Shown here one piece after another: positions 48,833-63,404 of a stretch of 64,000 nt of DNA; the stretch's first letter is position 1; every line of letters starts with the position of its first letter. This DNA comes from Dehalococcoidia bacterium (GTDB taxonomy: Bacteria > Chloroflexota > Dehalococcoidia > Plut-88900), in contig OY764147.1 in the NCBI GenBank assembly GCA_963668115.1, positions 2,010,061-2,074,060 on the forward strand. The letters are read 5' to 3'. The translations under genes and the position numbers were made by a program. The notes under the pieces are model-generated. The model was given only the letters and a program-made list of their open reading frames with translations, was not told the origin of the DNA and ran no database searches.

Positions 48833-50362
48833 TCATTCCCCGGCCCTTCCTGAAAGAACGGAAAATTCCACCCCCGCACAGGGGTTTCCCCTCGCGGTTT
48901 CACCCTTTTCCCTGGAACGGGATCGCCCTCCCTTGGAGCGTGGTGTTCTCGGCGCTCCGGCCCTAACGGGCGCGGAAGTTTGTTTTGCGGCGCCAGCCGG
49001 CGTCGTTTCAGCCGGCCCGAGGGCCAGAAGCCCCCGGCGCAGTATGTTCCTGGCAGCGTTCACGTCCGCGTGGTCGCGGTGCCCGCACTCCACGCACCTG
49101 AACTCCGCTTGTTTCTTCCTGTTGTCCGGGCTGACCGATCCGCACCTGTTGCAGGCCTGGCTCGTGTGTCGGGGATCGACCCGCACAAACCGGATACCGG
49201 CCCTTTCAGCCTTGTACTCCAGCTGCGTCAGTGTCGCCCCCCAGCCCCGCTCCAGTATAGATCTGTTCAGCCTTCGCTTCGCCGAGACGTTCTTTCCGGG
49301 CGCCTCCTCCGTACCCCGCGCCGACCGTATCATGTTCGGTATATCCAGGTCCTCTACGGCTATGAAATCGTGACCGCTGTTGACAATCTCGTTGGTTATC
49401 CGGTGAATCCAGTTCCTCTGCGATAGCCGCTCCCTTTCGCAGACTCTCCCATATTCGGCGCGCGTCTTGGCGTAGTTGCGTCCCGCCCCCTCTGACCACA
49501 CCAGCTTCGCCTTCCCGCTGCCCGTCGGCCTGTAGTGCGCCCTCCCGTTACTGACCGCCGACTTCATTTGTCGGGCCATCCTCCGGCTCAACCGGCGTTT
49601 GCGCGCCTGAGTGCCGTCGTCCGTACGCGGGGGCGCGGGAATCTCCACTAGCCCGTCCGACGTTGCGATGGTGTTCGCCACCCCCACGTCAAGACCTACG
49701 GGCGATTTCGGCTCGCATGGCATCATCTCCAGTTGCCGGGGCTCCGCGGGTTGATGCTCGTATGCCATCGAAGCCATTACCCTTACCGGTGTCCGCGTTA
49801 TGCGGATGACCTTGGGCTGACCATCGGGGAGCGGGCGGCTCGGCGGTCGAAAGTGCAACGGCGGCAAACCCTTTATCTTGATTGCCCCGCCGCCCTTTTC
49901 ATTCAGCTTCAGATTGTTCCCATCCCCCGTGTATATGTCCAGCGTGCGGAACCGGTTGCGGGACTTGAATCGGGGCCGTCCGCCCCTCATTCCGTCCTGC
50001 TTCCGTTGCCGGAACCGCTTGTACGCTTCATTTGCCCTGTTCAGCGTGCCCGCGGACGTACCCGCATGCATCCGTCGGTCCTGGGCCTCATAGGCAGGGT
50101 CGTCCTCGCGGATGCCCGTCACCTCCCTCGCCTGCGAGGCCAAGGTCACCGCAGCTGGCACCGGAAACCGTCGCTCAACGAACTCCTCCGATGCGCCTCC
50201 GTTGATTGCCGCAAAGCGCAATGCCGCGTACTTCCCCGCCGCAAACCGCTCTTCCAGAGCCGCGTTGTACAGCCGCCTGTTTAGCTCCAACGCCTCGTCC
50301 AGCCGCCGGTGCCCCGCCCTGCTCAGCCGCAGCGTAACCTGCCTCGTGTCTCCCATGCCCAT
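48833..50362 (-). CDS. tnpB: TnpB (IS200/IS605-family OrfB, RuvC-like RNA-guided nuclease family)
   Basis: RPRFKS..., GLDVGV (RuvC-I Asp), FIAVEDLDI (RuvC-II Glu), HTSQACNRCG...FRCVECGHRDHADVNAARNI (zinc ribbon plus RuvC-III Asp). Start at ATG 50362 or 50356. The long basic C-terminal tail probably overlaps the omega-RNA region. Confidence 0.88.
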   Translation of the reverse strand: MGMGDTRQVTLRLSRAGHRRLDEALELNRRLYNAALEERFAAGKYAALRFAAINGGASEEFVERRFPVPAAVTLASQAREVTGIREDDPAYEAQDRRMHAGTSAGTLNRANEAYKRFRQRKQDGMRGGRPRFKSRNRFRTLDIYTGDGNNLKLNEKGGGAIKIKGLPPLHFRPPSRPLPDGQPKVIRITRTPVRVMASMAYEHQPAEPRQLEMMPCEPKSPVGLDVGVANTIATSDGLVEIPAPPRTDDGTQARKRRLSRRMARQMKSAVSNGRAHYRPTGSGKAKLVWSEGAGRNYAKTRAEYGRVCERERLSQRNWIHRITNEIVNSGHDFIAVEDLDIPNMIRSARGTEEAPGKNVSAKRRLNRSILERGWGATLTQLEYKAERAGIRFVRVDPRHTSQACNRCGSVSPDNRKKQAEFRCVECGHRDHADVNAARNILRRGLLALGPAETTPAGAAKQTSAPVRAGAPRTPRSKGGRSRSREKGETARGNPCAGVEFSVLSGRAGE

Positions 50363-50389
50363 GCAAAAATCATAGCACACCCCCAATCC

Positions 50390-53117: not shown

Positions 53118-53276
53118 CTCTCTCCGCCTTGTGCCTTGAAAGTCCTTGGCCGTTGCAGGCCATTATACTTAGCCGCAGGCCGGGGACGCGGCCTTTGCCT
53201 GCCCCCGTTCCGTTCTCGATGCCGTAACGTTAGAATAGGGGTCGCATCGCACCAAAAGCGTCTTTCGGAGGACTTC

Positions 53277-53795
53277 ATGGCCGGACCCACCCAGGACATG
53301 GGACTCGTCAACACCTTCACACCCGAGGCCCTCGGCGAGCCCGGCAAGCGCACCTTCCGCCTCATGGTCGGTTCGGAGCTTGGAACGGCGGTCATCTGGC
53401 TCGAAAAGGAGCAGCTCCTCGAACTGGGCCTCCACCTGAAGAGGGCCGTCGGCGTGATGGAGGAGATCGAGGAGCCCGAGCTTCCCACTCCCTCGTACCC
53501 GGCGGTCGAAGACCCGGACTTTCAGTTCAAGCTCGGAAAGCAGGCCGTCGAGTTCGACGAGCAGGACGGCCTGTTCCGCTTCTGGAACTACGACGTTGAG
53601 GTCGAGGAGGATGTCGCCTCCCTCGTTTTCGAGGCCACCATACCCCAGGTAGTGGACTTCGCCGAGGAAAGCCTCAGGGTTTGCTCCTCCGGCAGGCCCA
53701 TCTGCCCCCTCTGCCACGAGCCCATCAACCCCGACGGCCATTTCTGCTCCCGCTCCAACGGCCACCCCGTCAACGCTGCCGAAAGGCTCCAGTAG
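53277..53795 (+). CDS. DUF3090-family protein
   Basis: Real start at ATG 53277 (MAGPTQDMGLVNTFTPEALGEPGKRTFRL...). C-terminal ...GRPICPLCHEPINPDGHFCSRSNGH is the hallmark of DUF3090/TIGR03847 as I recall it. The rest of track ORF 52038..53795 is antisense shadow of MscS. Confidence 0.8.
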   Translation: MAGPTQDMGLVNTFTPEALGEPGKRTFRLMVGSELGTAVIWLEKEQLLELGLHLKRAVGVMEEIEEPELPTPSYPAVEDPDFQFKLGKQAVEFDEQDGLFRFWNYDVEVEEDVASLVFEATIPQVVDFAEESLRVCSSGRPICPLCHEPINPDGHFCSRSNGHPVNAAERLQ

Positions 53796-53796
53796 C

Positions 53797-54567
53797 ATGG
53801 CGCCGGAGGACGAGGGGACGAATCACCCCGTTCAGCCGAGCATCGACCCCTCCCGCCACCCCCACATCTGCCGCGACCTCTCCCGGGCCGCGGCGGACAG
53901 GTGCGACCAGGTCCTGAGAGGCTCCAACTATACCTTCCTCGTCGCCCTCTCCCTCGACGGCAAGCCCTTCGACTACGGCATCTACAAGCCCCGCCGCGGC
54001 GAGAACCCCCTCTGGGACTTCCCCATCGGCACCCTCTACAAGAGGGAGGTCGCCGCCTACCTCCTCAGCGAGGCCCTCGGCTGGCACTTCATCCCCCCAA
54101 CCGTCGTCTGGGACGGCCCCTACGGCGAAGGCTCCCTCCAGCTCTTCATCCGCGACGCCCACAAGACCCACTACTTCGACCTCCGGGACACCCACCCCGA
54201 GGAGGTCAAGCGCATCGCCGTCTTCGACCTCCTCGTCAACAACACCGACAGGAAGGGCGGCCACTGCATCAAGGACCCCGGCGGCAAGGTCTGGGGTATC
54301 GACCACGGCCTCACCTTCAGCATCGACCCCAAGCTCCGCACCGTCATCTGGGACTTCGGCGGCGAGAAGATAGACCGGGATTGCCTCGACTCCGTGGCCC
54401 GTGAACTCGCCCGCTTCCACACCCCCAAGGGTCTCGCCCGCCGCCTGACCGGCCTCCTGGACGAAGAAGAGATAGACTGGCTGGCTATGAGGATGCAGGA
54501 CGTACTCCGAGAGCCCGTATTGCCCGTGCTGAGGAGCCGGTGGGAGGTCCCGTGGCCCCTGGTCTGA
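53797..54567 (+). CDS. SCO1664-family protein (PI3/PI4-kinase-like fold)
   Basis: ...YKPRRGENPLWDFP...NNTDRKGGHCI...GIDHGLTF... are kinase-like catalytic and DxG-like motifs. Begins 2 nt after the DUF3090 stop. Confidence 0.75.
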   Translation: MAPEDEGTNHPVQPSIDPSRHPHICRDLSRAAADRCDQVLRGSNYTFLVALSLDGKPFDYGIYKPRRGENPLWDFPIGTLYKREVAAYLLSEALGWHFIPPTVVWDGPYGEGSLQLFIRDAHKTHYFDLRDTHPEEVKRIAVFDLLVNNTDRKGGHCIKDPGGKVWGIDHGLTFSIDPKLRTVIWDFGGEKIDRDCLDSVARELARFHTPKGLARRLTGLLDEEEIDWLAMRMQDVLREPVLPVLRSRWEVPWPLV

Positions 54568-54580
54568 GCGCTTCCCCGGC

Positions 54581-55489
54581 CTAGTCGTTCCCCCCGAACA
54601 CGCCCTTCACCTTCTCGATGAAAGTCTCATGCCGTGCGAACTTCGCCAGGTACTGCACCAGCTCTTCGTTGCCCGCCATTATGGGGGAGTGCCAGTTTCT
54701 CAGTCGTGGCCCACTCCCTTTACCGTCAACCGAGGACGTCCGAAAGGTGGAAAACTCCTTCCACTGTTTCCGCTCCCTTTCGTACGTCAGCACCGAGCCT
54801 CCGGCCTCCTTCACCAGCACGATCCCGGCCGCCACGTCCCATATCCGCGGCGCCGTAAACACCGAGTACTGGAACACGCCGCTGGAAGTCAGGGCCATCT
54901 CGTACGCCAGGCTCCCCGGCCCCCGCCCCTCCCCGACCGGCGCGCTCGGGCCGGCGTTCTTCGTGTACATCAACCTGAAGTCCCGGTGGAATATGGCCAG
55001 TTGGCCGGGCTGGGGCGCAGGGTTCTGCTTCACCGCCATCGGTACGTCGTCCTTGAATGCCCCTTGCCCCTTGCAGGCGTGAAACAGCGCCCCATCGGGC
55101 TTTGCCGGCCAGGGCGTCCATATGCACCCGACCTCCGGGACTCCGTTGTGAAGCACCCCTATGGAGACCGCGTAGATCGGCAGGCCGTTGATGTAGTTGA
55201 GCGTGCCGTCCAGGGGGTCCAGCACCCAGATGAACTCCGACTCCTCGGTCTGCTCGTCCGTGCCCTCTTCACCCAGAATCCCGTGTCCCGGGAACCGTCG
55301 ACCGATCTCCGCCTTCAGGTAGGCCTCGCTCTCCTTGTCCGCCTCGGATACCAGGTCGGACTTGCTGCCCGCCTTCCCCTCCACCCCTCCCACGTTTCCG
55401 AAGTGACTCTCCAGTATCCGTGAGGCGCCTCGGGCCATCTCTATGGCCCCGGCCAGCACGTCCGACAGCGAAACGTCTTCCCGTTCCAT
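54581..55489 (-). CDS. Inositol monophosphatase/CysQ-family phosphatase
   Basis: ...WVLDPLDGTLNYINGLP... (DPxDGT metal motif), ...WDVAAG... 302 aa. Confidence 0.9.
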   Translation of the reverse strand: MEREDVSLSDVLAGAIEMARGASRILESHFGNVGGVEGKAGSKSDLVSEADKESEAYLKAEIGRRFPGHGILGEEGTDEQTEESEFIWVLDPLDGTLNYINGLPIYAVSIGVLHNGVPEVGCIWTPWPAKPDGALFHACKGQGAFKDDVPMAVKQNPAPQPGQLAIFHRDFRLMYTKNAGPSAPVGEGRGPGSLAYEMALTSSGVFQYSVFTAPRIWDVAAGIVLVKEAGGSVLTYERERKQWKEFSTFRTSSVDGKGSGPRLRNWHSPIMAGNEELVQYLAKFARHETFIEKVKGVFGGND

Positions 55490-56001
55490 CAGTCCCTGGC
55501 GGGAACCTCCGACTCGATGCTGTTGCCCAGCAGGATGTCTCTCAGCAGTTCTATGGCGGCATTGGACGCCGACTCACGGTTCTCCACCCTGCCCCCCGAG
55601 AAGTGCCTCTCCACGCACACGTCGATTTCATCACCCGCTACCGCCACGAAGAACAGGCCCACCGGTTTAGTCCTCGTGCCGCCCGTCGGGCCCATGACCC
55701 CCGTGGCCGCAACGGCGAGGTCCGTCCCTATCAGGCGTCGTGCGCCCTTGGCCATCTCCCGCGCCGTCACGGGAGACACCGACCCCTCCATTACCATCAC
55801 GCCCTTCGGCACGCCGAGTACCCCTTCCTTGACCTGGTTGGCATAGGCCAGCACGCCTCCCAGGAAGTACCTGGAGCTCCCCGACACACTGGTCAGCTTC
55901 GATGCTATCAGCCCCGAGGTGCAAGCCTCCGCCACCGAGACCGTCAACCTCCGCTCCTTCAGCGCCTCCGCAACCTGCTCAACTACCGAATGTTCTTCCA
56001 T
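55489..56001 (-). CDS. CinA C-terminal-domain / nicotinamide-nucleotide amidohydrolase (PncC-like)
   Basis: ...LTVSVAEACTSGLIASKLTSVSGSSRYFLGGVLAYANQVK... 170 aa. Stop overlaps the next start. Confidence 0.9.
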   Translation of the reverse strand: MEEHSVVEQVAEALKERRLTVSVAEACTSGLIASKLTSVSGSSRYFLGGVLAYANQVKEGVLGVPKGVMVMEGSVSPVTAREMAKGARRLIGTDLAVAATGVMGPTGGTRTKPVGLFFVAVAGDEIDVCVERHFSGGRVENRESASNAAIELLRDILLGNSIESEVPARD

Positions 56002-56010
56002 GCTATCGCC

Positions 56011-56622
56011 CTACGAACCCACTTCCACGCTGACATCCGTCGGGTTGCCGCTATTTGTAGCGTTCTGGTCCTGCGGGCACGCCGACACGCACACCCAGCA
56101 GTCCATCTCCGCCCTGAGCAGCACATAGTCGCCGGGCTTGGTCTGCGGCGCGGCCACGCCCATCCGACCGTCGGGAAACACCGGGAAATTCGTGAACAGG
56201 TTGACCGGCTGCGGAATCTCCACACCCGGCGCCCCTATCGCCTCCATCTCCTTCTGCAGGTTCTCCTCGCAGCTTGCGTGCCACCCCTCCACCCCCAGCT
56301 CCCGGTAGCGGCTCGGGTTGCAGGCGGCAAACAGCAGGTCGTGGATGCCGGGACTGTGGTCTTCCACGAGGGTAATGATGGGCCTGCGCTCCTGCGTGTA
56401 GAACGCCTCCCCCTCTATCGGGAACAGCCTCTCGATGGAGGGTCGGGTGTGGTGCGCGCTCAGGTACTCCTTGACGTTATCGACGTTGAACGCAAACAGG
56501 TCGACCGCCTGGCCGCCCCGCAGGTCGATCACCTTGATCATCTCCCCCCGGGACACCCTGAACGCCTTCCCTTCACGAGCAGGTACGTGATAGTCCAACC
56601 GCTTATTCGCCAGTTCCGTCAT
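56011..56622 (-). CDS. DUF1989 (urea-carboxylase-associated) family protein
   Basis: ...VPAREGKAFRVSRGEMIKVIDLRGGQAVDLFAFN...DLLFAACN...YVLLRAEMD... 203 aa. Confidence 0.8.
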   Translation of the reverse strand: MTELANKRLDYHVPAREGKAFRVSRGEMIKVIDLRGGQAVDLFAFNVDNVKEYLSAHHTRPSIERLFPIEGEAFYTQERRPIITLVEDHSPGIHDLLFAACNPSRYRELGVEGWHASCEENLQKEMEAIGAPGVEIPQPVNLFTNFPVFPDGRMGVAAPQTKPGDYVLLRAEMDCWVCVSACPQDQNATNSGNPTDVSVEVGS

Positions 56623-56780
56623 CCCTATTCCTCCACTGGAAGCATGTGCATCTCACCGGACAGTTTAAGGGTAGCAGACTCCGCATGCACCCCCTTGTGA
56701 GTGATGCGCGCCTTGGGTACACTCATATTGTGCCGTTTCACATCCGTGACCAACATTCAGTACGGCGGACACCCACCAGA

Positions 56781-57014
56781 ATGGACACCCTTGAGAAATT
56801 CGCTGTAGCTGACAATTGGGACGCCGGTCACATGGGCTGCGGCGAAGTCATCATCCTGCTCAGGCAGCGCATGCAGCCCCTCGCACCGGGCCAGGTTTTC
56901 AAGCTCACCACCTATGACTTGGGCGCCCATGAAGACATCCCCGCCTGGTGCCGGCTCACCGAACGCCGCCTCCTGAAATCCGACCACCCCCACTACTGGA
57001 TCGAACAGAAATAG
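56781..57014 (+). CDS. TusA-like small sulfur-carrier-fold protein with variant C-G-x-V motif
   Basis: Start at ATG 56781. DAGHMGCGEVIILLRQRM aligns with TusA LDxxGLxCPxP (Cys kept, prolines lost). ...YDLGAHEDIPAWCRLT... is like the TusA C-terminal region. Confidence 0.55.
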   Translation: MDTLEKFAVADNWDAGHMGCGEVIILLRQRMQPLAPGQVFKLTTYDLGAHEDIPAWCRLTERRLLKSDHPHYWIEQK

Positions 57015-57031
57015 TTTCCTAAGGAGCCGAT

Positions 57032-57394
57032 ATGCCCGGAAAATTTTGCGTTAGCCTTACCCATGCCAAAGACAACTCCGATAAGGCCACCGTGGCCTTC
57101 GTCATAGCCAACGCCGCCCTCGGGTCTGAAAAAGACACCCTGGTATTCCTGAGTACCGAGGGCGTGCGCCTTTCCCAGAAGGGCTACGCCGACGACATCC
57201 ACGAGGACGGATTCCTCCCTCTCAAGGAGCTCATGGATAACTTCGCCGCAGTTGGCGGCAACATTTTCGTATGCGCCCCTTGCTTCAAGAAACGCGGCCT
57301 CGATGAGAACAACCTCGTGGACGGAGCGACCATAGTAGGCGGTGCAAAGTTGGTGGAGTTCCTCTCCGACGGCAGCCCCTCCGTCTCCTATTGA
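57032..57394 (+). CDS. DsrE/DsrF-like family protein
   Basis: 120 aa. ...KATVAFVIANAAL...LVFLSTEGVRL...NIFVCAPCFKKRGL... fits the DsrE-like (COG2044-type) pattern with conserved Cys. Confidence 0.7.
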   Translation: MPGKFCVSLTHAKDNSDKATVAFVIANAALGSEKDTLVFLSTEGVRLSQKGYADDIHEDGFLPLKELMDNFAAVGGNIFVCAPCFKKRGLDENNLVDGATIVGGAKLVEFLSDGSPSVSY

Positions 57395-57415
57395 TAGCTG
57401 CCGAGTGAGGCCCCT

Positions 57416-58936
57416 TTGGACCCCGTAGAACGCCACCCCTACACCCCCGATGTCAGCTTTGACGGCGGAGACCTCGACTGCGGCGGCGGTCTCCTGCTCC
57501 TGATCCGCCGCCACATTGACCCCATGGAACGCGGTGGCCTACTCGAAATCCTTTCCACCGACTCCACCGTCGAGATAGAGCTCCCCGCCTGGTGCCGGAT
57601 GACCAGCAACGAAATGGTCTCCTGGACCAGGGTCAACGGCCAGCGCAGCTTCCTCGTGAGCAAGGGTCCGTTCTCGGAAAGCCGGTCCGCAACTGCTGTG
57701 CAAGCCGTCCCGTCCATCGGCGAACAGCTTAGGGTGGAAGTGACCATACCCGACTCCCTCCCCCCGCCCTCACCCGCCCCGAAGATTGCTCCCTTGTCCG
57801 TCATGGGCATCGGCAGCTGGCCCCGGCCCCGCTGGATGCTCCAGGCCGTCCATGACCGGCTCGAGGGTCGGCTGGATGAGGAAGAATTCCAGGCCACCGC
57901 CGACGACGCAGTTCGCCTTTCCATCGACGCCCAGGTCCGTGCAGGCGTGGACGTGGTCACCGACGGAGAACAGCGTCGGGACAGCTACGCCAGCTTTGTC
58001 GGGGGGCTCCTCGACAACTGCCAGCTTATCCCCCTGACCGACCTCACCGCAATGGTCGACGACCCCGAGAAATTCGAAAAGGAGCTTCGCGCCCTAGACG
58101 TACCCGCGGGCGAAGTCCGCCACCCCGTCGTCTACGGCAAGCTGGGCAGAAGCAAGCCCCTAGCCCTCCACGAACTTGAATGCGCCCGCCAGTGCACCGA
58201 TAGGCCCGTGAAAGTCGCTCTCCCGGGGCCCTACCTGCTGACTCGCACCATGTGGCTTGACTGCCTCACCGACCTCCCCTACCAGACCCGCGAAGACCTC
58301 GCCCAGGATGTCGTCCGCATCCTCCGCGAAGAGCTGCACTTCCTCCTAGCCTCCGGCGCAGCCCTCGTCCAGTTCGACGAACCCGTCCTTACCGAGGTCG
58401 TGTTCGGCGGCGCCACCGGCAACCGCACCTTCATGTGCGGGGCACTGAGCGAAAAGCTCCCCCCCGACGCCGAACTTGACTTCGCCACCAACCTCCTCAA
58501 CGAGGTTGTCCGTGATCTCCCACCCGACCGCCTCGGCCTCCACATCTGCCGCGGCAACTGGACCCGTGACGAGTCGGCGGCACTGTCGGGGGACTACAGG
58601 CCTTTGTTGGACCTGCTCAAGAGCGTAAATGTCGGGACACTCTTCTTGGAGCTGTCCACCCCTCGGGCTGGTGAAGCCTCAATCCTCGGTTCTCTGCCAG
58701 AGGACAAGCGCATCGGCATAGGCGTCGTCAACCAGAAACTCGACGCTATAGAAACCCCCGAGGCTATTCGCGCAAGTGTAGATCTGGGCACAAACCTCTT
58801 CGGCAAGGAGCGCCTCCTCCTCACCCCCGACTGCGGTTTCGCTACCTTCGCCGACAACCCCGTTGCCTCCGCAAAGACCGCCGAGGCCAAGCTACACTCC
58901 ATAGTTCAGGCCAGGGACCTGGTCGCCACCTCATGA
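57416..58936 (+). CDS. Fusion of a TusA-like domain and a MetE-like (cobalamin-independent methionine synthase C-terminal, Zn-dependent) domain
   Basis: N-terminal FDGGDLDCGGGLLLLIRRHI...ELPAWCRMT (TusA-like). C-terminal GSWPRP, VVTDGEQRRDSY, VQFDEPV, LHICRGNW (HxC), ...LEL..., LTPDCGF (Cys) give the MetE Zn-ligand pattern. TTG start. Confidence 0.75.
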   Translation: MDPVERHPYTPDVSFDGGDLDCGGGLLLLIRRHIDPMERGGLLEILSTDSTVEIELPAWCRMTSNEMVSWTRVNGQRSFLVSKGPFSESRSATAVQAVPSIGEQLRVEVTIPDSLPPPSPAPKIAPLSVMGIGSWPRPRWMLQAVHDRLEGRLDEEEFQATADDAVRLSIDAQVRAGVDVVTDGEQRRDSYASFVGGLLDNCQLIPLTDLTAMVDDPEKFEKELRALDVPAGEVRHPVVYGKLGRSKPLALHELECARQCTDRPVKVALPGPYLLTRTMWLDCLTDLPYQTREDLAQDVVRILREELHFLLASGAALVQFDEPVLTEVVFGGATGNRTFMCGALSEKLPPDAELDFATNLLNEVVRDLPPDRLGLHICRGNWTRDESAALSGDYRPLLDLLKSVNVGTLFLELSTPRAGEASILGSLPEDKRIGIGVVNQKLDAIETPEAIRASVDLGTNLFGKERLLLTPDCGFATFADNPVASAKTAEAKLHSIVQARDLVATS

Positions 58937-59634
58937 CCGGCCCGTCAGGCCCTCCCCCCGCGAACGACGAACAAATCCAGGTTCAGGGGTACCAGGGGTT
59001 CCGAGCCCCGGAGGGCCACTCCGGTCAGGGCACCCTCATCAACACTTCACGGGGCAACATCTTCAGCCTCTTCCACCCGACCCAGACCATGGATGCCGCC
59101 GTCGTTTGGGTCTGGGGGGCCAGGGGTGGTGTAACGGGCCCCGCCGACGGCATGTTCGTCCGCCTCGCCGAAAAACTGGCCGCCGAAGGCATTGCCTCTC
59201 TCCGCCTCGACTACCGTTTGCCCAACGACCTCTATGAATGCGTTCTGGATACGCTGGCTGGGGTTACCTTGCTGCTGGGAGTCGGGTTCAAGAGGGTGGC
59301 GCTAGTCGGGCACTCCTTCGGCGGGGCCGTTGTAATAGCCGCTGCGCCATATAACGACAAGGTGGTTGCCGTCGCCGGCCTGTCAAGCCAGAGCGCCGGT
59401 GCCCAACGCGTCGCCGATGTTGCCCCCCGACCCCTCCTCCTCGTCCACGGCGCCGACGACGCCATAATCCCCGTCCGCGCCTCCCAGTTCATCTACGACC
59501 TTGCCCAGCAACCCAAAGAACTCCGCTACTTCGAGGGCGCAGGCCACGGCTTAACCGAATGCCGTGAAGAGCTTGATGAACTTCTATTCGGTTGGCTCAA
59601 GGATAAGCTGGCGCCGCCTGTTCAGGAATCCTGA
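58933..59634 (+). CDS. Alpha/beta hydrolase (dienelactone-hydrolase-like)
   Basis: VALVGHSFGGA nucleophile elbow, ...LLLVHGADDAIIP..., ...GAGHG. ATGA overlap with the upstream gene. Confidence 0.7.
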   Translation: MTGPSGPPPANDEQIQVQGYQGFRAPEGHSGQGTLINTSRGNIFSLFHPTQTMDAAVVWVWGARGGVTGPADGMFVRLAEKLAAEGIASLRLDYRLPNDLYECVLDTLAGVTLLLGVGFKRVALVGHSFGGAVVIAAAPYNDKVVAVAGLSSQSAGAQRVADVAPRPLLLVHGADDAIIPVRASQFIYDLAQQPKELRYFEGAGHGLTECREELDELLFGWLKDKLAPPVQES

Positions 59635-60869
59635 TTACAAACATCCAGTGCCGTGACAGCCATCACCTTGGCGGCGGTCACCATGTCGCTGATGCGGATG
59701 TAGTGGTCGGGCTCGTCTACGGCAGCGTCCCAATTGCCCCCGGGCCCGTACAGGACACACGGGATCCCGGCCTGCCACAGGTGCGTAGTGTCGTTCCCCG
59801 AGTAGGAGTTCGGCAGCTTGCTCCCGACATGCGCCAGCTCTCCACCCGTCACCGCCCTGTACCCCCGACCCACCGCCTTCACTATCTCCTCGTCCGTGGG
59901 CATGTCCATCGGCTCCATGATGGTGCGGAGGACGCGGTATTCGGGATCGGGCGGCATCTCCAGCTCGTACTCGAAGTCGGGGTCCGACGCCTTGATCCCG
60001 TCCAGCGCCCGACGCACTTCCTCCAGCACCCCCGCCGACGTCTGGCCCGGCACCATCCGGCCATCCACTAACGCCGTGCAGAAGTCAGGCACAAAATTCG
60101 GCCCGTTGATAACGTGGTTCCTGCCTTGCCCCCCGATTATGGCGCCCACGTGTAGCCGGGGCAGCGAAGGTAGGGCAGGAAAGTGAGTGTGCGTAAGCTC
60201 CAGCCCGTTGATCGCCTCAATGGCCTTCGACATCTTCTGGATGGCGTTGATCCCCGTCTCTTTCTGGCTGATGTGCCGGGACCTGCCCAGGACGTGGACC
60301 GCGATCTCCAGCCAACCGGCGTGGACGGTGAGGACGGTGTCCGCGTCGTTGGGCTCTGCAACTATCGCCATGTCGGGCCGGTACCCGTGCTCCAGCGCAT
60401 ACTCCGTCCCGACTCCCCCCTGCAGCTCCCCCACTACGCACGCCACCTGTATATCACCCTTGTGAGCCGCCTTCGAACGACGTATCGCCTCTGCTGCCGC
60501 TATTATCGATGCCACTCCACCCTTCATGTTGTAGATTCCAGCGCCGTACAGCCGGTCGCCTTCCACGCTCGAAGTCCAGGGGTCTCGCTTCCAGCCCATG
60601 GATAGCGGGTCCTGGTCGATGTGCCCGTTCAGCATCAGCGTCTTCCCGCCACCCGACCCTCTCAGAGTCGCTATCACCTGGTATCGCCCAGGATCGACCT
60701 CCTGCAAATCTACCTCGTACCCCCACCGCCGGAAATTCGATGCGAGAAACAAGGCTATCTGCGACTCCTCGGTCTTGAAGCTCGGTATGTCGATCAGCTT
60801 CCTCGCGAAGGAGACTAGCCAGTCCTCCTTCACCCGGTTTGTTACTCTTTCCAAGGTTTGAGTAGCCAT
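59622..60869 (-). CDS. M20-family metallopeptidase/deacylase (tandem paralog 3)
   Basis: Start at MATQTLERV (ATG 60869). ...IPSFKTEE..., LMLNGHIDQDPL, ACVVGELQGGVG. Confidence 0.9.
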   Translation of the reverse strand: MATQTLERVTNRVKEDWLVSFARKLIDIPSFKTEESQIALFLASNFRRWGYEVDLQEVDPGRYQVIATLRGSGGGKTLMLNGHIDQDPLSMGWKRDPWTSSVEGDRLYGAGIYNMKGGVASIIAAAEAIRRSKAAHKGDIQVACVVGELQGGVGTEYALEHGYRPDMAIVAEPNDADTVLTVHAGWLEIAVHVLGRSRHISQKETGINAIQKMSKAIEAINGLELTHTHFPALPSLPRLHVGAIIGGQGRNHVINGPNFVPDFCTALVDGRMVPGQTSAGVLEEVRRALDGIKASDPDFEYELEMPPDPEYRVLRTIMEPMDMPTDEEIVKAVGRGYRAVTGGELAHVGSKLPNSYSGNDTTHLWQAGIPCVLYGPGGNWDAAVDEPDHYIRISDMVTAAKVMAVTALDVCNQDS

Positions 60870-60883
60870 AATCAGTCTCCCGG

Positions 60884-62128
60884 CTATGCGGACAGGTTGC
60901 AGACCTCCAAGGCCGTCAGAGCGTGCGTCTTCGCGCACTCGACCATCTCGCTGACGTAGACGAAGGTGTCCGGCACGTCATCGAAGGTGCGGTCGCCGCC
61001 CGGGCCGTTGAGAACGCAGGGGATGCCGGCTTTCCAGAGGTGACATGTGTCGTTCCCAGCGTAGGACCGGGGAAGTATCGCCCCGACGTTGTCCGGCGGC
61101 GAGCCCGTGTGCCCTTCCATTGCCCGGGCCACCGCCCCGACTATGTACTCGTCTCTCGGGATGTCAACGGGGTCCATGGTCACCGCCACACCCTTATACC
61201 TCGCAGGGGGCGGTATCTCGATCTCCCACCTCAGATCCCGGTCCTCGGCGCTCAGGGCCTCCAGGACCTTCCTCACGTCCTCTTCCACGCTCTCCTCAGT
61301 TTGTCCCGGCACCATGCGCACGTCCCAGATGGAGGTGCAGAAGTCGCTGACGTAGTTGGGGCCCTTCAGGTCGTGTTCCCGCCCCCGCCCCCCGATTATC
61401 GCCCCGCAGTTGATGCGCGGCAGACCGGGCAGTTCCGAGTGTGGTGTGTGCCTCAGTTCCACCTTATCCACAGCATTGATCACCTTCATCATCTTGGCTA
61501 TGGCGTCGATGCCTTTCTCTCGGACGGTGATGTGCGTCGAATATCCAAGTGTGTTGATGGCCATGCCTATGACCCCTGCGTGGGTGGTCATGATGGTCCG
61601 TGATCCGAAGGGCTCGGCGACTATCGCCATGTCCGCCGTGACGCCGCTTTCCAGGGCATGCACCGTCCCCACCCCTCCCTGCAACTCCCCCACAACACAC
61701 GCCACTACGATATCCCCCTTCAACTCCACCCCCGACTTCCGTATCGCCTCCGCCGCAGATATCATCGACGCCACGCCGCCCTTCATGTTGAAGGCGCCGC
61801 CCCCGTATAGCCGGTCCCCCTCCCAGCTGGGCGTCCAGGGGTCTCGGGCCCAGCCCATGGCCAGTGGGTCGATGTCAATGTGACCGTTCAGCATCAGGCT
61901 CTTACCACCGCCCGACCCCTTCAGCGTCGCTATAGTCTGGTACCGACCTGGCTCCACCTCCTGAAGATCAACCTCGTACCCCCGACGCCGGAAGTAGCCA
62001 GCCAGGTACCGGGCAACCTTCTGCTCCTCCGTCTTGAAGCTCGGGATCCGCAGCAGGCTGCTACACAGGTCTACGACCTCCCGGTCCCTGATCTTGGAGA
62101 GGACTTTCTGCTTTGCGCTTGCATCCAT
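60884..62128 (-). CDS. M20-family metallopeptidase/deacylase (tandem paralog 2)
   Basis: Start at MDASAKQKV (ATG 62128). Same motifs (LMLNGHIDIDPLAMGW, ACVVGELQGGVGT). Confidence 0.9.
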   Translation of the reverse strand: MDASAKQKVLSKIRDREVVDLCSSLLRIPSFKTEEQKVARYLAGYFRRRGYEVDLQEVEPGRYQTIATLKGSGGGKSLMLNGHIDIDPLAMGWARDPWTPSWEGDRLYGGGAFNMKGGVASMISAAEAIRKSGVELKGDIVVACVVGELQGGVGTVHALESGVTADMAIVAEPFGSRTIMTTHAGVIGMAINTLGYSTHITVREKGIDAIAKMMKVINAVDKVELRHTPHSELPGLPRINCGAIIGGRGREHDLKGPNYVSDFCTSIWDVRMVPGQTEESVEEDVRKVLEALSAEDRDLRWEIEIPPPARYKGVAVTMDPVDIPRDEYIVGAVARAMEGHTGSPPDNVGAILPRSYAGNDTCHLWKAGIPCVLNGPGGDRTFDDVPDTFVYVSEMVECAKTHALTALEVCNLSA

Positions 62129-62153
62129 CGAATTGCCTCTTCTGTACCTCGTC

Positions 62154-63404
62154 CTACTTCTCCTGGTTGCACCAGTCCAGCGCCGCCATCGCATACGTCT
62201 TCGCCAGCTGCACCATGCTCGGCACTACGACGTAGGAGTCCGGCTCTCCCTTCTGGTCCCGACCGTTCTCCGCCCCCATCAGGCACACAGGGATGCCCGC
62301 CTCCCAGATGTGGCAGCTGTCGTTGCCTGCGTACGACTGCGTCAGAATAGCCCCGACCTTGTCCGGTGCCCTACCCGACACCCTCCTGTACGCCTTCTCC
62401 AGGTTCTGCACTATCACGTTGTCCTTCGGCACGTCCAGCGGGTTCATGAACTCGGTCATTACCTTGTACTCGGGCGGAACGGGCGTCACGATTTCGTACT
62501 CGAAGTTCGGGTCCTCTTCCTTGAACTTGCTCATGACCCGGTCCAGGTCGGCCTTCACCGTGACGTGGGACTGGCCGGGGACGATCCGGGCATCGACTAT
62601 CACCGTGCAGTAGTCGCAGGTGAAATTTGGCCCCTTCAGGTCGTGGTTCCTACCCCGACCACCGATTATCGTCCCGCAGATGATCCTGGGGAGATCTGGC
62701 AGGTCGGGTCTGTGATCGTAGGTAAAGTCCACGTTCTTGATTGCGGGAATCGCCTTGGTCATCATCTCCAGCGCATCGACGGCTAGGTGAGACCGGCTCA
62801 CGTGCTGTGAGAGGCCAATGGTGCTGATAGCCAGCTCTACCACCCCGGCGTGGGTTGTCATGATGTTGTCACCGTCACCCGTGGGCTCCGCCACATAAGC
62901 CCCATCCGTCCTAAGCCCCTGTTTCAGCGCATATACCGTCCCGACACCCCCCTGCAGCTCGCCAACCACGCACGCCACCACCAGGTCGCCCTTCATCGGG
63001 GCCTTGGCTTTCCGGATCGCTTCGGCGGCGGTGATGATGGCGGTCACACCGCCCTTCATGTTGTTGACGCCCGCTCCGTAGAGCCGGTCGCCTTCCCAGC
63101 TTGGCGTGAACGGCTCCCGGACCCAGCCCATGGCCAGCGGGTCGATGTCGATGTGGCCATTCAGCATCAGGCTCTTCCCCCCACCCGACCCCTTCAACGT
63201 CGCTATCGTCTGGTACCGACCCGGCTCAACCTCTTGCAGATCAACCTCATAGCCTCGGCGCTGGAAGAATCGAGCCAGGAACCGGGCGACCTTCTGTTCC
63301 TCGGTCTTGAAGCTGGGGATGGATATCAGGTCGCTGGCCAGTTTGACGGTCTGCTCGGTCTTGATCTGGCGCAGCACGCGCTCCTCAACGGCATGGTCAA
63401 CCAT
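62154..63404 (-). CDS. M20-family metallopeptidase/deacylase (tandem paralog 1)
   Basis: 416 aa, same motifs. A TATACT box on the minus strand (63478-63473) is a candidate operon promoter. Confidence 0.9.
   Translation of the reverse strand: MVDHAVEERVLRQIKTEQTVKLASDLISIPSFKTEEQKVARFLARFFQRRGYEVDLQEVEPGRYQTIATLKGSGGGKSLMLNGHIDIDPLAMGWVREPFTPSWEGDRLYGAGVNNMKGGVTAIITAAEAIRKAKAPMKGDLVVACVVGELQGGVGTVYALKQGLRTDGAYVAEPTGDGDNIMTTHAGVVELAISTIGLSQHVSRSHLAVDALEMMTKAIPAIKNVDFTYDHRPDLPDLPRIICGTIIGGRGRNHDLKGPNFTCDYCTVIVDARIVPGQSHVTVKADLDRVMSKFKEEDPNFEYEIVTPVPPEYKVMTEFMNPLDVPKDNVIVQNLEKAYRRVSGRAPDKVGAILTQSYAGNDSCHIWEAGIPVCLMGAENGRDQKGEPDSYVVVPSMVQLAKTYAMAALDWCNQEK

What the first reader, a model, noticed from the sequence alone, without database searches (positions are those of the whole stretch)
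56781..58936. TusA-like / DsrE-like / TusA-MetE-fusion gene cluster: a sulfur relay wired to a Zn-dependent MetE-fold transferase
Three co-directional, closely spaced genes. The first is a 77-aa TusA-fold-like protein whose carrier Cys is kept but in a variant G-C-G-E-V context instead of C-P-x-P. The second is a DsrE/DsrF-like protein with the VCAPC cysteine pair. The third is a 506-aa protein with a second variant TusA-like domain (DLDCGGG) fused to a complete short MetE-type domain retaining the Zn ligand pattern (LHICRGNW ... E ... LTPDCGF). TusA and DsrE proteins pass persulfide sulfur, and MetE-fold enzymes activate a thiol on Zn for alkyl transfer. I do not know of a characterised physical fusion of the two. 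It suggests methylation or alkylation of a carrier-bound (per)sulfide, or sulfur delivery for homocysteine/methionine-type chemistry. An alpha/beta hydrolase overlaps the 3' end (ATGA).
Basis: partly seen in the sequence, partly recalled or inferred. Interest (0 to 1): 0.65.

Follow-up and report, generated by a model that had tools for sequence, protein, structure and literature searches.

The report
Sulfur-relay operon with TusA-fused MetE-core enzyme
Three co-transcribed genes encode two small cysteine-based sulfur-carrier proteins and a zinc enzyme of the methionine-synthase fold with a third carrier domain fused to it; the module is widespread and highly conserved, I found no paper on it, and its chemistry is still unknown.

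Summary
Window 56781-58936 (+) holds a TusA-like gene (77 aa), a DsrE gene (120 aa, VCAPC) and a 506-aa fusion of a TusA-fold domain to a folate-domain-less "core" MetE-type enzyme. TusA plus DsrE plus fusion occurs in 70 of 83 related loci and DsrE plus fusion in 78, across about 10 phyla, with otherwise unrelated flanks. The overlapping alpha/beta hydrolase is not part of it.

In 137 fusion proteins these residues are invariant: carrier Cys22, the homocysteine-binding triad (S134, E185, D321), the Zn ligands (H376, C378, E412, C473), and a Cys on a flexible loop (F-M-C341-G).

Three standalone sister clades keep the same core. They pair it with other small cysteine proteins: OsmC-like plus or minus rhodanese, a YedF-type DsrE domain, or OsmC-like plus a PhnD-like protein.

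Some loci embed an HtxB-like (phosphite/hypophosphite-type) ABC importer in the operon. Others lie next to metX/metY/metW or to selA.

My best reading is a new family of homocysteine-binding Zn alkyl-transferases coupled to a cysteine (S or Se) relay. No paper in the searched library describes it. The exact reaction is not established.

The parts
56781..57014 (+). TusA-like carrier protein (77 aa; the start could lie upstream, since the ORF is open to 56646). Cys20 (GCGEV) and Cys57 (PAWCRLT) are its conserved cysteines.
   Evidence: Pfam TusA 26.9 bits. Aligns to E. coli TusA with Cys on Cys19. Cys20 and Cys57 are 100% conserved in 65 distinct orthologues. Present upstream of DsrE in 70 of 83 loci.
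57032..57394 (+). DsrE-family protein (120 aa) with an invariant C81-A-P-C84 pair. Distantly DsrE3A-like.
   Evidence: PF02635 54.8 bits. Best solved relative is 3MC3 = SSO1125, which Liu 2014 (PMC4175335) names DsrE3A. C81 and C84 are 100% conserved in 75 orthologues. Median identity across phyla is 77.5%, higher than the enzyme's 66%.
57416..57670 (+). N-terminal TusA-fold domain of the fusion (residues 1-85). Cys22 in FDGGxLDCGxG; Cys60 in PAWCR.
   Evidence: Profile hit to E. coli TusA at 1.2e-7, and 25/25 members hit PF01206. AF2 pLDDT 93; Foldseek TusA 3LVJ_C TM 0.86. Cys22 is present in 137/137 and Cys60 in 122/137. Paralogous to the upstream TusA gene.
57671..57796 (+). Linker (residues 86-127). 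Residues 93-103 are disordered. The Pro-rich C-terminal part is predicted to pack on the barrel.
   Evidence: AF2: pLDDT below 50 for residues 93-103, and about 95 for residues 110-130.
57797..58936 (+). Core MetE-type (beta/alpha)8 catalytic domain (residues 128-506). Homocysteine triad S134, E185, D321. Zn ligands H376, C378, E412, C473. Clade-specific R379, C202, C283 and loop F339-M340-C341-G342 (Cys341 codon at 58436-58438).
   Evidence: PF01717 93.9 bits. Closest structure is MesD 3RPD (E 1.5e-21; Foldseek TM 0.81). All listed residues are invariant or at least 99% conserved in 137 sequences. The loop has low pLDDT of 55-71. There is no N-terminal MetE barrel, and all NCBIfam methionine-synthase models score far below their cut-offs.

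Best explanation
The three genes are one functional module: a dedicated cysteine relay coupled to a new family of "core" (folate-domain-less) MetE-type zinc enzymes.

Shown here:
- The enzyme keeps the Zn site and the three residues that hold the amino-acid end of homocysteine or methionine.
- It has no folate-binding barrel.
- It carries a fused TusA domain with an invariant Cys22.
- It has an invariant Cys341 on a loop predicted to be flexible, just after the DEP strand.
- It is almost always encoded with a DsrE protein carrying an invariant CxxC (78 of 83 loci) and usually with a two-Cys TusA (70 of 83).
- Related standalone clades swap these partners for other small cysteine proteins.

Inferred mechanism, to which I commit. 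Homocysteine sits as a Zn-thiolate, as in MetE and MesD. The group it reacts with is not folate- or corrinoid-bound. It is held on a chalcogen (S, possibly Se) attached to a relay cysteine (Cys341 or Cys22), for example a methyl-disulfide or methyl-selenenylsulfide. Alkyl transfer to homocysteine gives methionine and leaves a persulfide or perselenide on the protein. That species is passed along fused TusA, then TusA, then DsrE(CxxC), and is either used or reduced. The relay therefore delivers the donor and carries away the leaving group.

The direction of transfer, the identity of the transferred group, and the choice between S and Se are not established.
For: Unit and conservation. DsrE plus fusion occurs in 78 of 83 loci and TusA in 70, with short gaps and unrelated flanks.

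Active site. S134, E185, D321 and H376, C378, E412, C473 are invariant in 137 fusions and in clades B to D. They correspond to MesD S22/E73/D188 and MetE H641/C643/E665/C726 (Price 2021, PMC7857596).

Core type. There is no Meth_synt_1 barrel. The best structural match is MesD.

Relay cysteines. Cys22 is 100% conserved, TusA C20 and C57 are 100%, and DsrE C81xxC84 is 100%. The F-M-C341 loop is shared only by clades A, B and D. All three have OsmC-like, rhodanese, TusA or DsrE partners. It is absent from relatives without such neighbours.

Partner swapping. OsmC-like is adjacent in 72 of 82 clade-B loci and rhodanese in 40 of 82. Clade C has a YedF-type DsrE with CGIC. Clade D has OsmC-like plus a PhnD-like protein.

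Sulfane loading and reduction. In Paracoccus a cysteine desulfurase lies divergently upstream and trxB lies downstream.

Methionine context. metY-metX-metW-PNP lies next to DsrE-fusion in 6 Binatia loci. metNIQ lies next to clade C.
Against: - No methyl donor or donor-making enzyme is identified anywhere in the neighbourhoods.
- Thiolates normally attack the sulfur, not the methyl carbon, of a methyl-disulfide, so the proposed step has no precedent.
- No SAM or cobalamin riboswitch precedes the cassette in the window or in 29 related loci, 10 of them fusion-clade. In clade C the S-box sits only in front of metNIQ.
- Clade C lacks Cys341.
- In Proteobacteria the operon embeds an HtxB-like importer whose known relatives bind hypophosphite or phosphite. 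This model does not explain that.
- I could not test whether the host genomes also carry MetE or MetH.
Confidence: 0.35

Rival explanations
1. The Zn site activates the carrier-bound persulfide (on Cys22, Cys341 or TusA) as the nucleophile. It alkylates or methylates that persulfide, giving a methyl-disulfide or methanethiol.
For: The carrier is physically fused to a Zn-thiolate alkyl-transferase fold. Cys22 and Cys341 are invariant. Persulfides are strong nucleophiles (general chemistry).
Against: The homocysteine amino- and carboxyl-binding triad is invariant. That is hard to explain if a protein Cys occupies the Zn site. No methyl-donor module is present.
Confidence: 0.1
2. Thiol-forming route. 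The relay delivers sulfane sulfur (or Se) to make homocysteine or selenohomocysteine. Either the persulfide attacks an activated C4 amino acid (O-acetyl- or O-phospho-homoserine) held by the triad, or the domain reductively releases homocysteine from a carrier-S-S-homocysteine made by MetY. DsrE(CxxC), OsmC and TrxB supply the two electrons.
For: metX, metY and metW lie next to the cassette in Binatia. A Cys_Met_Meta_PP gene lies nearby in Reyranella. Cysteine desulfurase and trxB flank it in Paracoccus. Both carriers have two conserved cysteines, as expected for dithiol-disulfide exchange. A carrier-protein route to homocysteine is known in Wolinella (HcyS/MetY; from my own knowledge).
Against: No MetE-fold enzyme is known to form a C-S bond at C-gamma. 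PLP enzymes do this step. Where MetY is present the step would be redundant.
Confidence: 0.15
3. A selenium-trafficking module. The Cys relay (a split YedF analogue) handles selenite or organoselenium. The MetE-like enzyme acts on a Se compound, for example by demethylating Se-methyl species onto homocysteine, or by working on selenohomocysteine or selenomethionine. The product feeds perselenide towards SelD and SelA.
For: A bona fide selA (445 bits to 8UZW) plus trxB lie directly downstream in Paracoccus. A selA-selB operon lies 3 kb away in beta-proteobacterial L078. The clade-C partner passes NCBIfam's cut-off for the selenium-metabolism protein YedF. The embedded SBP belongs to the PhnD/HtxB family, which takes small pyramidal or tetrahedral oxyanions. 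Selenolates are far better leaving groups than thiolates (general chemistry).
Against: Only 2 lineages out of about 87 loci show sel genes. No Sec codon replaces any conserved Cys. The YedF-selenium link is itself a comparative-genomics prediction. I did not check whether most host lineages use selenium.
Confidence: 0.15
4. An oxyanion-processing system. In the six-gene proteobacterial operon the fusion sits where ptxD sits in ptxABCDE. The module would then oxidise or thiolate the imported anion (phosphite or hypophosphite, or an isostere such as bisulfite) using sulfane sulfur or disulfides.
For: The SBP is 44-46% identical to HtxB. It has exactly the "HtxB-like" pocket (S128, H158, F/Y176, with the W52 cap and the R178/D206 pair kept) that Adams 2019 (PMC6629693) predicted to bind phosphite. 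The gene order is SBP-permease-ATPase-fusion-LysR. This arrangement occurs in alpha- and beta-Proteobacteria, Rokubacteria and Methylomirabilota. Clade D also has a PhnD-like partner.
Against: Only about 9 of about 87 fusion-clade loci carry the transporter, and the window does not. The homocysteine triad has no role in this model. No Pho-type or P-related neighbours were seen.
Confidence: 0.1
5. An ordinary cofactor-independent methionine synthase. The partners only protect, reduce or metallate its oxidation-sensitive Zn-thiolate site, and the donor is a common metabolite.
For: Public annotations call it a methionine synthase. OsmC, AhpD-like (CMD) and Fur/PerR-like neighbours suggest redox stress. 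MetE is known to be oxidation-sensitive (from my own knowledge).
Against: The folate barrel is absent. The characterised core MetE enzymes cannot use methyl-THF (PMC7857596). A covalently fused carrier with an invariant Cys, and the very high conservation of DsrE, argue for a catalytic role.
Confidence: 0.1

Closest known systems
MesD (core methionine synthase of aerobic bacteria; PDB 3RPD; Price et al. 2021)
   Same: A single (beta/alpha)8 MetE-type barrel without the folate domain. The same Zn ligands and the same Ser/Glu/Asp homocysteine triad. It is the best sequence and structure match. Like MesD, the enzyme depends on an unusual partner encoded next to it.
   Different: Only about 23% identical. 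NCBIfam PRK09121 scores 105.8 against a cut-off of 392. The conserved partners are TusA and DsrE, and no other neighbour family is conserved (I did not search specifically for MesX/DUF1852). It has a fused TusA domain, a Cys-bearing loop insertion and an HxCRGNW motif.
MetE (cobalamin-independent methionine synthase, EC 2.1.1.14)
   Same: The catalytic-barrel fold, the Zn site and the homocysteine-binding residues.
   Different: It lacks the whole N-terminal barrel. In the alignments a different segment replaces the stretch that, from my own knowledge of MetE, carries the pterin-stacking Trp. TIGR01371 scores 61.9 against a cut-off of 929.95.
TusA (E. coli sulfur carrier) and YeeD/TsuB
   Same: The beta-alpha-beta-alpha-beta-beta fold, with the active Cys at the N-terminus of helix 1 and a second Cys in the (G/A)(F/W)C motif.
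   Different: The CPxP motif is replaced by CG(E/x)(V/G). Pfam scores sit around the cut-off. One copy is fused to an enzyme.
DsrE3A-TusA thiosulfonate relay of Metallosphaera and Sulfolobus (Liu et al. 2014)
   Same: A DsrE3A-like protein is encoded next to TusA. The first Cys aligns with the DsrE active-site Cys. A second nearby Cys is present.
   Different: The spacing is C-x2-C rather than C-x7-C. There are no hdr or lipoamide genes. The link is to a MetE-type enzyme in non-sulfur-oxidising lineages.
YedF (SirA/TusA domain plus DsrE-like domain; predicted selenium metabolism protein)
   Same: The TusA plus DsrE-like(CxxC) combination. The clade-C partner is a YedF-type DsrE domain above NCBIfam's cut-off.
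   Different: In the window the two domains are separate genes. The DsrE gives no NCBIfam hit, with E-values up to 0.01 allowed.
ptxABCDE / htxBCDE reduced-phosphorus uptake operons
   Same: An HtxB-like SBP, a PhnE-type permease, a PhnC-type ATPase and a LysR regulator are found in the proteobacterial version of the operon.
   Different: There is no PtxD or HtxA. The TusA/DsrE/fusion genes take their place. The transporter is absent from the window.

Membership tests
TusA family (PF01206) | Two-layer beta-alpha-beta-alpha-beta-beta fold | tested here: met
   AF2 secondary structure is E-H-E-H-E-E. Foldseek gives TM 0.86 and rmsd 1.7 A to E. coli TusA.
TusA family (PF01206) | Profile match at or above Pfam's gathering score | tested here: inconclusive
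   The window's two copies score 26.9 and 23.4 bits against a cut-off of 28.6. However, 25/25 N-domains match at E up to 0.01 (best 3.7e-11), and a family profile hits E. coli TusA at 1.2e-7.
TusA family (PF01206) | Conserved carrier Cys at the start of helix 1, classically in a CPxP motif | tested here: inconclusive
   The Cys is aligned and invariant. The motif is CGEV or CGxG, not CPxP.
TusA family (PF01206) | Carries persulfide sulfur | not testable with these tools
   Needs mass spectrometry of loaded protein.
DsrE/DsrF family (PF02635) | Profile match above the gathering score, and Cys at the DsrE active-site position | tested here: met
   54.8 bits against 22.7. C81 aligns with the active-site Cys column of SSO1125/DsrE3A and is invariant.
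DsrE3A subgroup | Cys-X7-Cys motif and linkage to hdr or dihydrolipoamide dehydrogenase genes | tested here: not met
   The motif is C-x2-C. None of the conserved neighbour families that were annotated is hdr- or lipoamide-related.
MetE (EC 2.1.1.14, TIGR01371) | Two (beta/alpha)8 barrels, the N-terminal one binding methyl-THF-polyglutamate | tested here: not met
   Only one barrel is present. Meth_synt_1 gives no real match. TIGR01371 scores 61.9 against 929.95.
MetE (EC 2.1.1.14, TIGR01371) | His-Cys-Glu-Cys zinc site and Ser/Glu/Asp homocysteine site | tested here: met
   H376, C378, E412, C473 and S134, E185, D321 are invariant.
Core methionine synthases MesA-MesD | Membership of one of the four families, using NCBIfam's methionine-synthase models as the nearest available proxies | tested here: not met
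   PRK04326 scores 144 against 406, PRK09121 105.8 against 392, and PRK00957 83 against 258. Identity to MesD 3RPD is about 23%. I did not compare directly with MesA, MesB or MesC reference sequences.
Core methionine synthases MesA-MesD | Partner that supplies methyl groups (corrinoid protein or MesX) | tested here: inconclusive
   The only conserved neighbours are TusA and DsrE. Not every rare neighbour ORF was annotated, so an occasional MesX or corrinoid-protein gene cannot be excluded.
Core methionine synthases MesA-MesD | Makes methionine from homocysteine in vivo | not testable with these tools
   Needs complementation of a metE metH mutant or an enzyme assay.
Epoxyalkane:CoM transferase (MetE-fold) | Uses coenzyme M as the Zn-bound thiol; linked to alkene monooxygenase and CoM biosynthesis genes | not tested
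   No reference sequence was at hand. XcbA is adjacent in 9 sister-clade loci and XcbB in 5; XcbC was identified in one of them, L086. None is adjacent to the fusion clade.

The most novel reading that the evidence does not exclude
The module is a "methyl-chalcogen salvage" or otherwise unprecedented Zn/cysteine-relay enzyme. A small anion or methylated S/Se species is captured on relay cysteines. Candidates are a seleninate, selenite, a sulfinate or a phosphite-like ion brought in by the HtxB-like transporter. The MetE-core domain then transfers its alkyl group to homocysteine. The remaining persulfide or perselenide is handed to TusA and DsrE for assimilation, for example towards SelD and SelA. 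This would be a cofactor-free methionine synthesis that uses a protein-bound chalcogen as leaving group, and a new entry point of S or Se into metabolism.
Probability: 0.12. Interest if true: 0.9.

Novelty: new variant of a known kind. Interest (0 to 1): 0.7.

Why it matters
Core MetE-type enzymes are an open problem. For the aerobic MesD family the methyl source is still unknown, and only four families have been described. This work adds a large fifth group with four clades and thousands of sequences, found in soil, freshwater, sponge-associated and Firmicutes-like metagenome lineages. Its obligatory partners are cysteine-based carriers rather than corrinoid proteins.

It also gives TusA and DsrE proteins a role outside tRNA thiolation and dissimilatory sulfur oxidation. 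It offers testable links to selenium handling (selA, YedF-type partner). It also links to an HtxB-like importer subfamily whose ligand and purpose are unknown.

Nitrospirillum sp. BR 11164 and Paracoccus versutus / P. ferrooxidans are cultured strains that carry the module, and a Reyranella sp. assembly carries it too, so the question can be tested directly.

Tried and rejected
- Riboswitches. Rfam at gathering threshold gave nothing before the cassette in the window or in 29 related loci. Permissive scans of the two upstream regions also gave nothing. The only SAM riboswitch found controls metNIQ downstream of the clade-C gene.
- Literature. Six full-text searches combining TusA, DsrE, MetE, core methionine synthase, rhodanese, homocysteine and MesX found no paper on this architecture. 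Price 2021 does not mention it.
- Source names. The eight clusters I looked up by exact sequence carry no name. Where a name exists in other searches it is the generic MetE name.
- ORF clustering. My first neighbour clustering was contaminated by long antisense "shadow" ORFs in this high-GC DNA. I redid it keeping all ORFs and reading GC by codon position.
- Hydrolase, DUF1989, CinA, IMPase and M20 neighbours. They occur in only 3 of 83 loci, so I rejected them as parts.
- Selenocysteine recoding of the conserved Cys. None was found.
- Promoter and terminator scan. Uninformative.
- Sequencing runs. Only DNA-type runs of the same organism turned up; I did not pursue expression.
I could not measure the Cys22-Zn or Cys341-Zn distance, because model coordinates are not returned. 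As a result the two Paracoccus-specific genes (a 168-aa membrane CxxC protein and a 522-aa periplasmic protein) remain unannotated.
Full report
1. WHAT IS THERE

On the + strand, window 56781-58936 carries three closely spaced ORFs.
- A 77-aa TusA-like protein at 56781-57014. The ORF stays open back to a GTG at 56646.
- A 120-aa DsrE protein at 57032-57394.
- A 506-aa protein at 57416-58936, with a TTG start.

The gaps are 17 and 21 nt, and a consensus AAGGAG precedes the DsrE gene. A 233-aa alpha/beta hydrolase starts at 58933 in an ATGA overlap. Upstream on the other strand lie DUF1989, CinA and an inositol monophosphatase. Downstream lie three paralogous M20 peptidases.

Pfam gives DsrE 54.8 bits (cut-off 22.7), Meth_synt_2 93.9 bits (cut-off 21), and TusA 26.9 and 23.4 bits (cut-off 28.6). 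The window is about 62% G+C with a steady negative GC skew. The closest genomes are uncultured Dehalococcoidia at 92% protein identity.

2. ARE THE N-TERMINAL UNITS REALLY TusA?

Yes.
- The 77-aa protein aligns to E. coli TusA with its Cys on Cys19.
- A profile of 25 N-terminal domains of the fusion hits E. coli TusA over its full length at E = 1.2e-7, again Cys on Cys19. All 25 members hit PF01206.
- An AlphaFold model of the isolated domain (pLDDT 93) has the beta-alpha-beta-alpha-beta-beta order. Its best PDB matches are TusA in the IscS-TusA complex (TM 0.86, rmsd 1.7 A) and then YeeD.
- The free TusA and the fused domain are paralogues that share a PAWCR(L/M)T motif.

3. THE ENZYME DOMAIN

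The full-length model is confident (pLDDT 87.5, pTM 0.85). It shows a TusA domain, a partly disordered linker, and a single (beta/alpha)8 barrel. The best sequence and fold match is MesD from Shewanella (3RPD; E 1.5e-21; TM 0.81), followed by the C-terminal barrels of MetE. There is no second barrel. All NCBIfam methionine-synthase models score far below their cut-offs: PRK04326 144 against 406, PRK09121 106 against 392, and TIGR01371 62 against 930.

In an alignment of 137 fusion proteins (47-92% identical to the window protein) the following are invariant.
- S134, E185 and D321. These align with MesD S22/E73/D188 and MetE S433/E484/D599, which bind the carboxyl and amino groups of homocysteine or methionine (PMC7857596).
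- H376, C378, E412 and C473, the Zn ligands.
- R379.
- Cys22 of the TusA domain.
- C283.
- The F339-M340-C341-G342 motif.

C202 is 99% conserved and C60 is 89% conserved. The FMC motif lies in a low-confidence loop (pLDDT 55-71). It follows the DEP strand directly, in a segment about 20 residues longer than in MesD. From barrel topology it should lie over the active site, which is an inference.

4. THE CASSETTE IS A CONSERVED, MOBILE UNIT

The family has thousands of 90%-identity clusters but only a few 50%-identity clusters. A scan of one genome per species returned 80 loci. About 31 are Chloroflexota. The rest include Burkholderiales and other Betaproteobacteria, Binatia, Planctomycetota, Acidobacteriota, Latescibacterota, Rokubacteria, Methylomirabilota, Verrucomicrobiota, Actinomycetota and the cultured Nitrospirillum sp. 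BR 11164.

DsrE lies directly upstream of the fusion in 78 of 83 loci and a separate TusA in 70. Median gaps are 30 and 37 nt. The five loci without a DsrE hit are all contigs that end just upstream of the fusion. The flanks differ between lineages. The hydrolase and the other window neighbours recur only in the 3 closest genomes.

Across phyla DsrE is more conserved than the enzyme (median 77.5% against 66%). TusA C20 and C57 and DsrE C81-x-x-C84 are invariant. The best solved relative of this DsrE is SSO1125, a DsrE3A. DsrE3A is the type that carries thiosulfonate to TusA in Metallosphaera.

5. SISTER CLADES SHOW THAT THE PARTNER PRINCIPLE IS GENERAL

Standalone proteins of about 390 aa at 32-47% identity exist.
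- Clade B (P0152-like, 45% identity). An OsmC-like gene is adjacent in 72 of 82 metagenome loci, and a two-domain rhodanese in 40. XcbA is adjacent in 9 of these loci and XcbB/ComA in 5; a near-cut-off XcbC was identified in one locus, L086. All three are coenzyme M biosynthesis genes.
- Clade C (P0181/P0425, Firmicutes-like). The gene is preceded by a 113-aa DsrE-type protein with CGIC. That protein passes NCBIfam's cut-off for the C-terminal domain of the selenium-metabolism protein YedF. The gene is followed by metNIQ with its own SAM riboswitch.
- Clade D (P0478, Tissierellia). The gene lies between a cytoplasmic PhnD-like protein and an OsmC-like protein.
- More distant relatives (P0162, P0193, P0196) have no such neighbours.

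All clades keep the triad, the Zn ligands and R379. The FMC loop Cys is present in clades A, B and D. C202 and C283 are specific to the fusion clade.

The constant feature is therefore a homocysteine-type Zn site plus a small reactive-cysteine protein (DsrE-CxxC or OsmC-like), often with a sulfurtransferase (TusA or rhodanese).

6. INFORMATIVE NEIGHBOURHOODS OF THE FUSION CLADE

(a) Six Binatia loci place DsrE-fusion divergently next to metY, metX, metW and a PNP-family gene.

(b) A PhnC/PhnE-type ABC importer is embedded in the operon, or lies immediately upstream, in these loci: five Burkholderiales, Nitrospirillum, Reyranella, a Rokubacterium and a Methylomirabilota MAG. In Nitrospirillum it comes with a TonB receptor and a LysR regulator. 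In Methylomirabilota it comes with a luciferase-like monooxygenase.

Its binding protein is 44-46% identical to the hypophosphite-binding HtxB (E 2.7e-75). In all seven full-length copies it has exactly the pocket of the "HtxB-like" subfamily: the W52 cap, S128, H158, F/Y176 and the R178/D206 pair. Adams et al. 2019 predicted that subfamily to bind phosphite. The order SBP-permease-ATPase-fusion-LysR mimics ptxABC-ptxD-ptxE (from my own knowledge of the ptx operon).

(c) In Paracoccus ferrooxidans and P. versutus the gene order is as follows. A cysteine desulfurase lies divergently upstream. Then come TusA, DsrE, a 168-aa membrane protein with CxxC, a 522-aa periplasmic protein, the fusion, a bona fide selA (445 bits to 8UZW) and trxB.

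(d) A beta-proteobacterial MAG has selA-selB 3 kb downstream.

(e) A Fur-family regulator is divergent in three Dehalococcoidia loci. Sulfatases flank the cassette in Latescibacterota and some others.

(f) No riboswitch precedes the cassette in any locus scanned.

7. INTERPRETATION

Shown: the module, its domain identities, the intact Zn and homocysteine site, the absence of a folate domain, the invariant relay cysteines, the partner swapping and the neighbourhoods.

Inferred: the three proteins form a relay ending at Cys22 and Cys341 above a Zn-bound homocysteine, and the reaction is an alkyl or chalcogen transfer between homocysteine and a group held on a relay cysteine.

I commit, at about 0.35, to a methionine-synthase-type reaction whose donor is chalcogen-linked. 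The relay would receive the resulting persulfide or perselenide. I prefer this for three reasons.
- It explains why sulfane-sulfur acceptors accompany a methyl-transferase fold that has no cofactor module.
- It explains why a cysteine desulfurase, TrxB and selA can be neighbours.
- It explains why methionine genes are neighbours.

It has no chemical precedent, and no donor-forming enzyme has been identified.

8. NOVELTY

I found no description of this architecture, of its sister clades' partner sets, or of the link between HtxB-like transporters and these genes in the library searched. Public annotations call the enzyme a MetE-type methyltransferase or a hypothetical protein.

It is best filed as a new variant, a fifth group, of core MetE-type enzymes. 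It is not a member of MetE, and by the NCBIfam proxy models it does not fall in MesA-D. There is a real chance that the chemistry is new.

Noticed in passing
window 58933-59634 (+): An alpha/beta hydrolase (Hydrolase_4/DLH-type) overlaps the stop of the fusion gene by ATGA. It is conserved only in the 3 closest genomes, so it is a local addition and not part of the module.
   Followed up: yes
window 59622-63404 (-): Three tandem paralogous M20/ArgE-DapE-type peptidase genes (438, 436 and 416 aa), with overlapping or abutting ends.
   Followed up: partly
window 48833-50386 (-): A TnpB/IS605 OrfB-type protein (Cas12f1-like TNB domain plus OrfB_IS605). This is a mobile-element nuclease gene about 6 kb upstream of the cassette.
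   Followed up: no
window 53259-54567 (+) and 54581-56622 (-): A DUF3090 gene plus a PI3/PI4-kinase-like (SCO1664-type) gene pair. Then, on the other strand, inositol monophosphatase, CinA/PncC-like and DUF1989 (urea-amidolyase-associated / TMAO-demethylase-like) genes.
   Followed up: no
L079 3495-5987; L174 5220-9004; L036, L040, L047, L064, L038, L061: An HtxB-like (hypophosphite/phosphite-type) ABC importer sits inside or next to the TusA-DsrE-fusion operon. All SBPs share the pocket W52, S128, H158, F/Y176, R178, D206 of the "HtxB-like" subfamily, whose ligand has never been measured.
   Followed up: partly
L175 4705-12919 (Paracoccus ferrooxidans pFER4); L078 5060-7953: A bona fide selA (plus trxB, and a divergent cysteine desulfurase) lies directly beside the cassette in Paracoccus. 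A selA-selB operon lies 3 kb away in a beta-proteobacterial MAG. Two Paracoccus-specific genes are inserted in the operon (a 168-aa membrane CxxC protein and a 522-aa periplasmic protein), and I could not assign them a function.
   Followed up: partly
L086 3614-10171; L092, L098, L099: In some sister-clade loci the rhodanese/MetE-like/OsmC trio is followed by xcbA and comA/xcbB, and in L086 also by an XcbC-like lyase. These are bacterial coenzyme M biosynthesis genes. No XcbD or XcbE was seen in the part of L086 that I annotated.
   Followed up: partly
L168 7338-7431; L169 6216-6309; L170 1890-1983: A SAM-I riboswitch (80 bits) lies between the clade-C MetE-like gene and metNIQ. It controls the transporter, not the DsrE/MetE-like pair.
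   Followed up: yes
P0147 (503 aa fusion homologue); P0151 and P0167: P0147 keeps Cys22 but has lost the Zn His and one Zn Cys (L--CLGP, TTDAGF). It is a possibly non-catalytic paralogue. P0151 and P0167 look frameshifted.
   Followed up: no
window 1-64000: GC skew is negative in every 2-kb bin (cumulative -5.3), so the whole window lies on one replichore arm.
   Followed up: no
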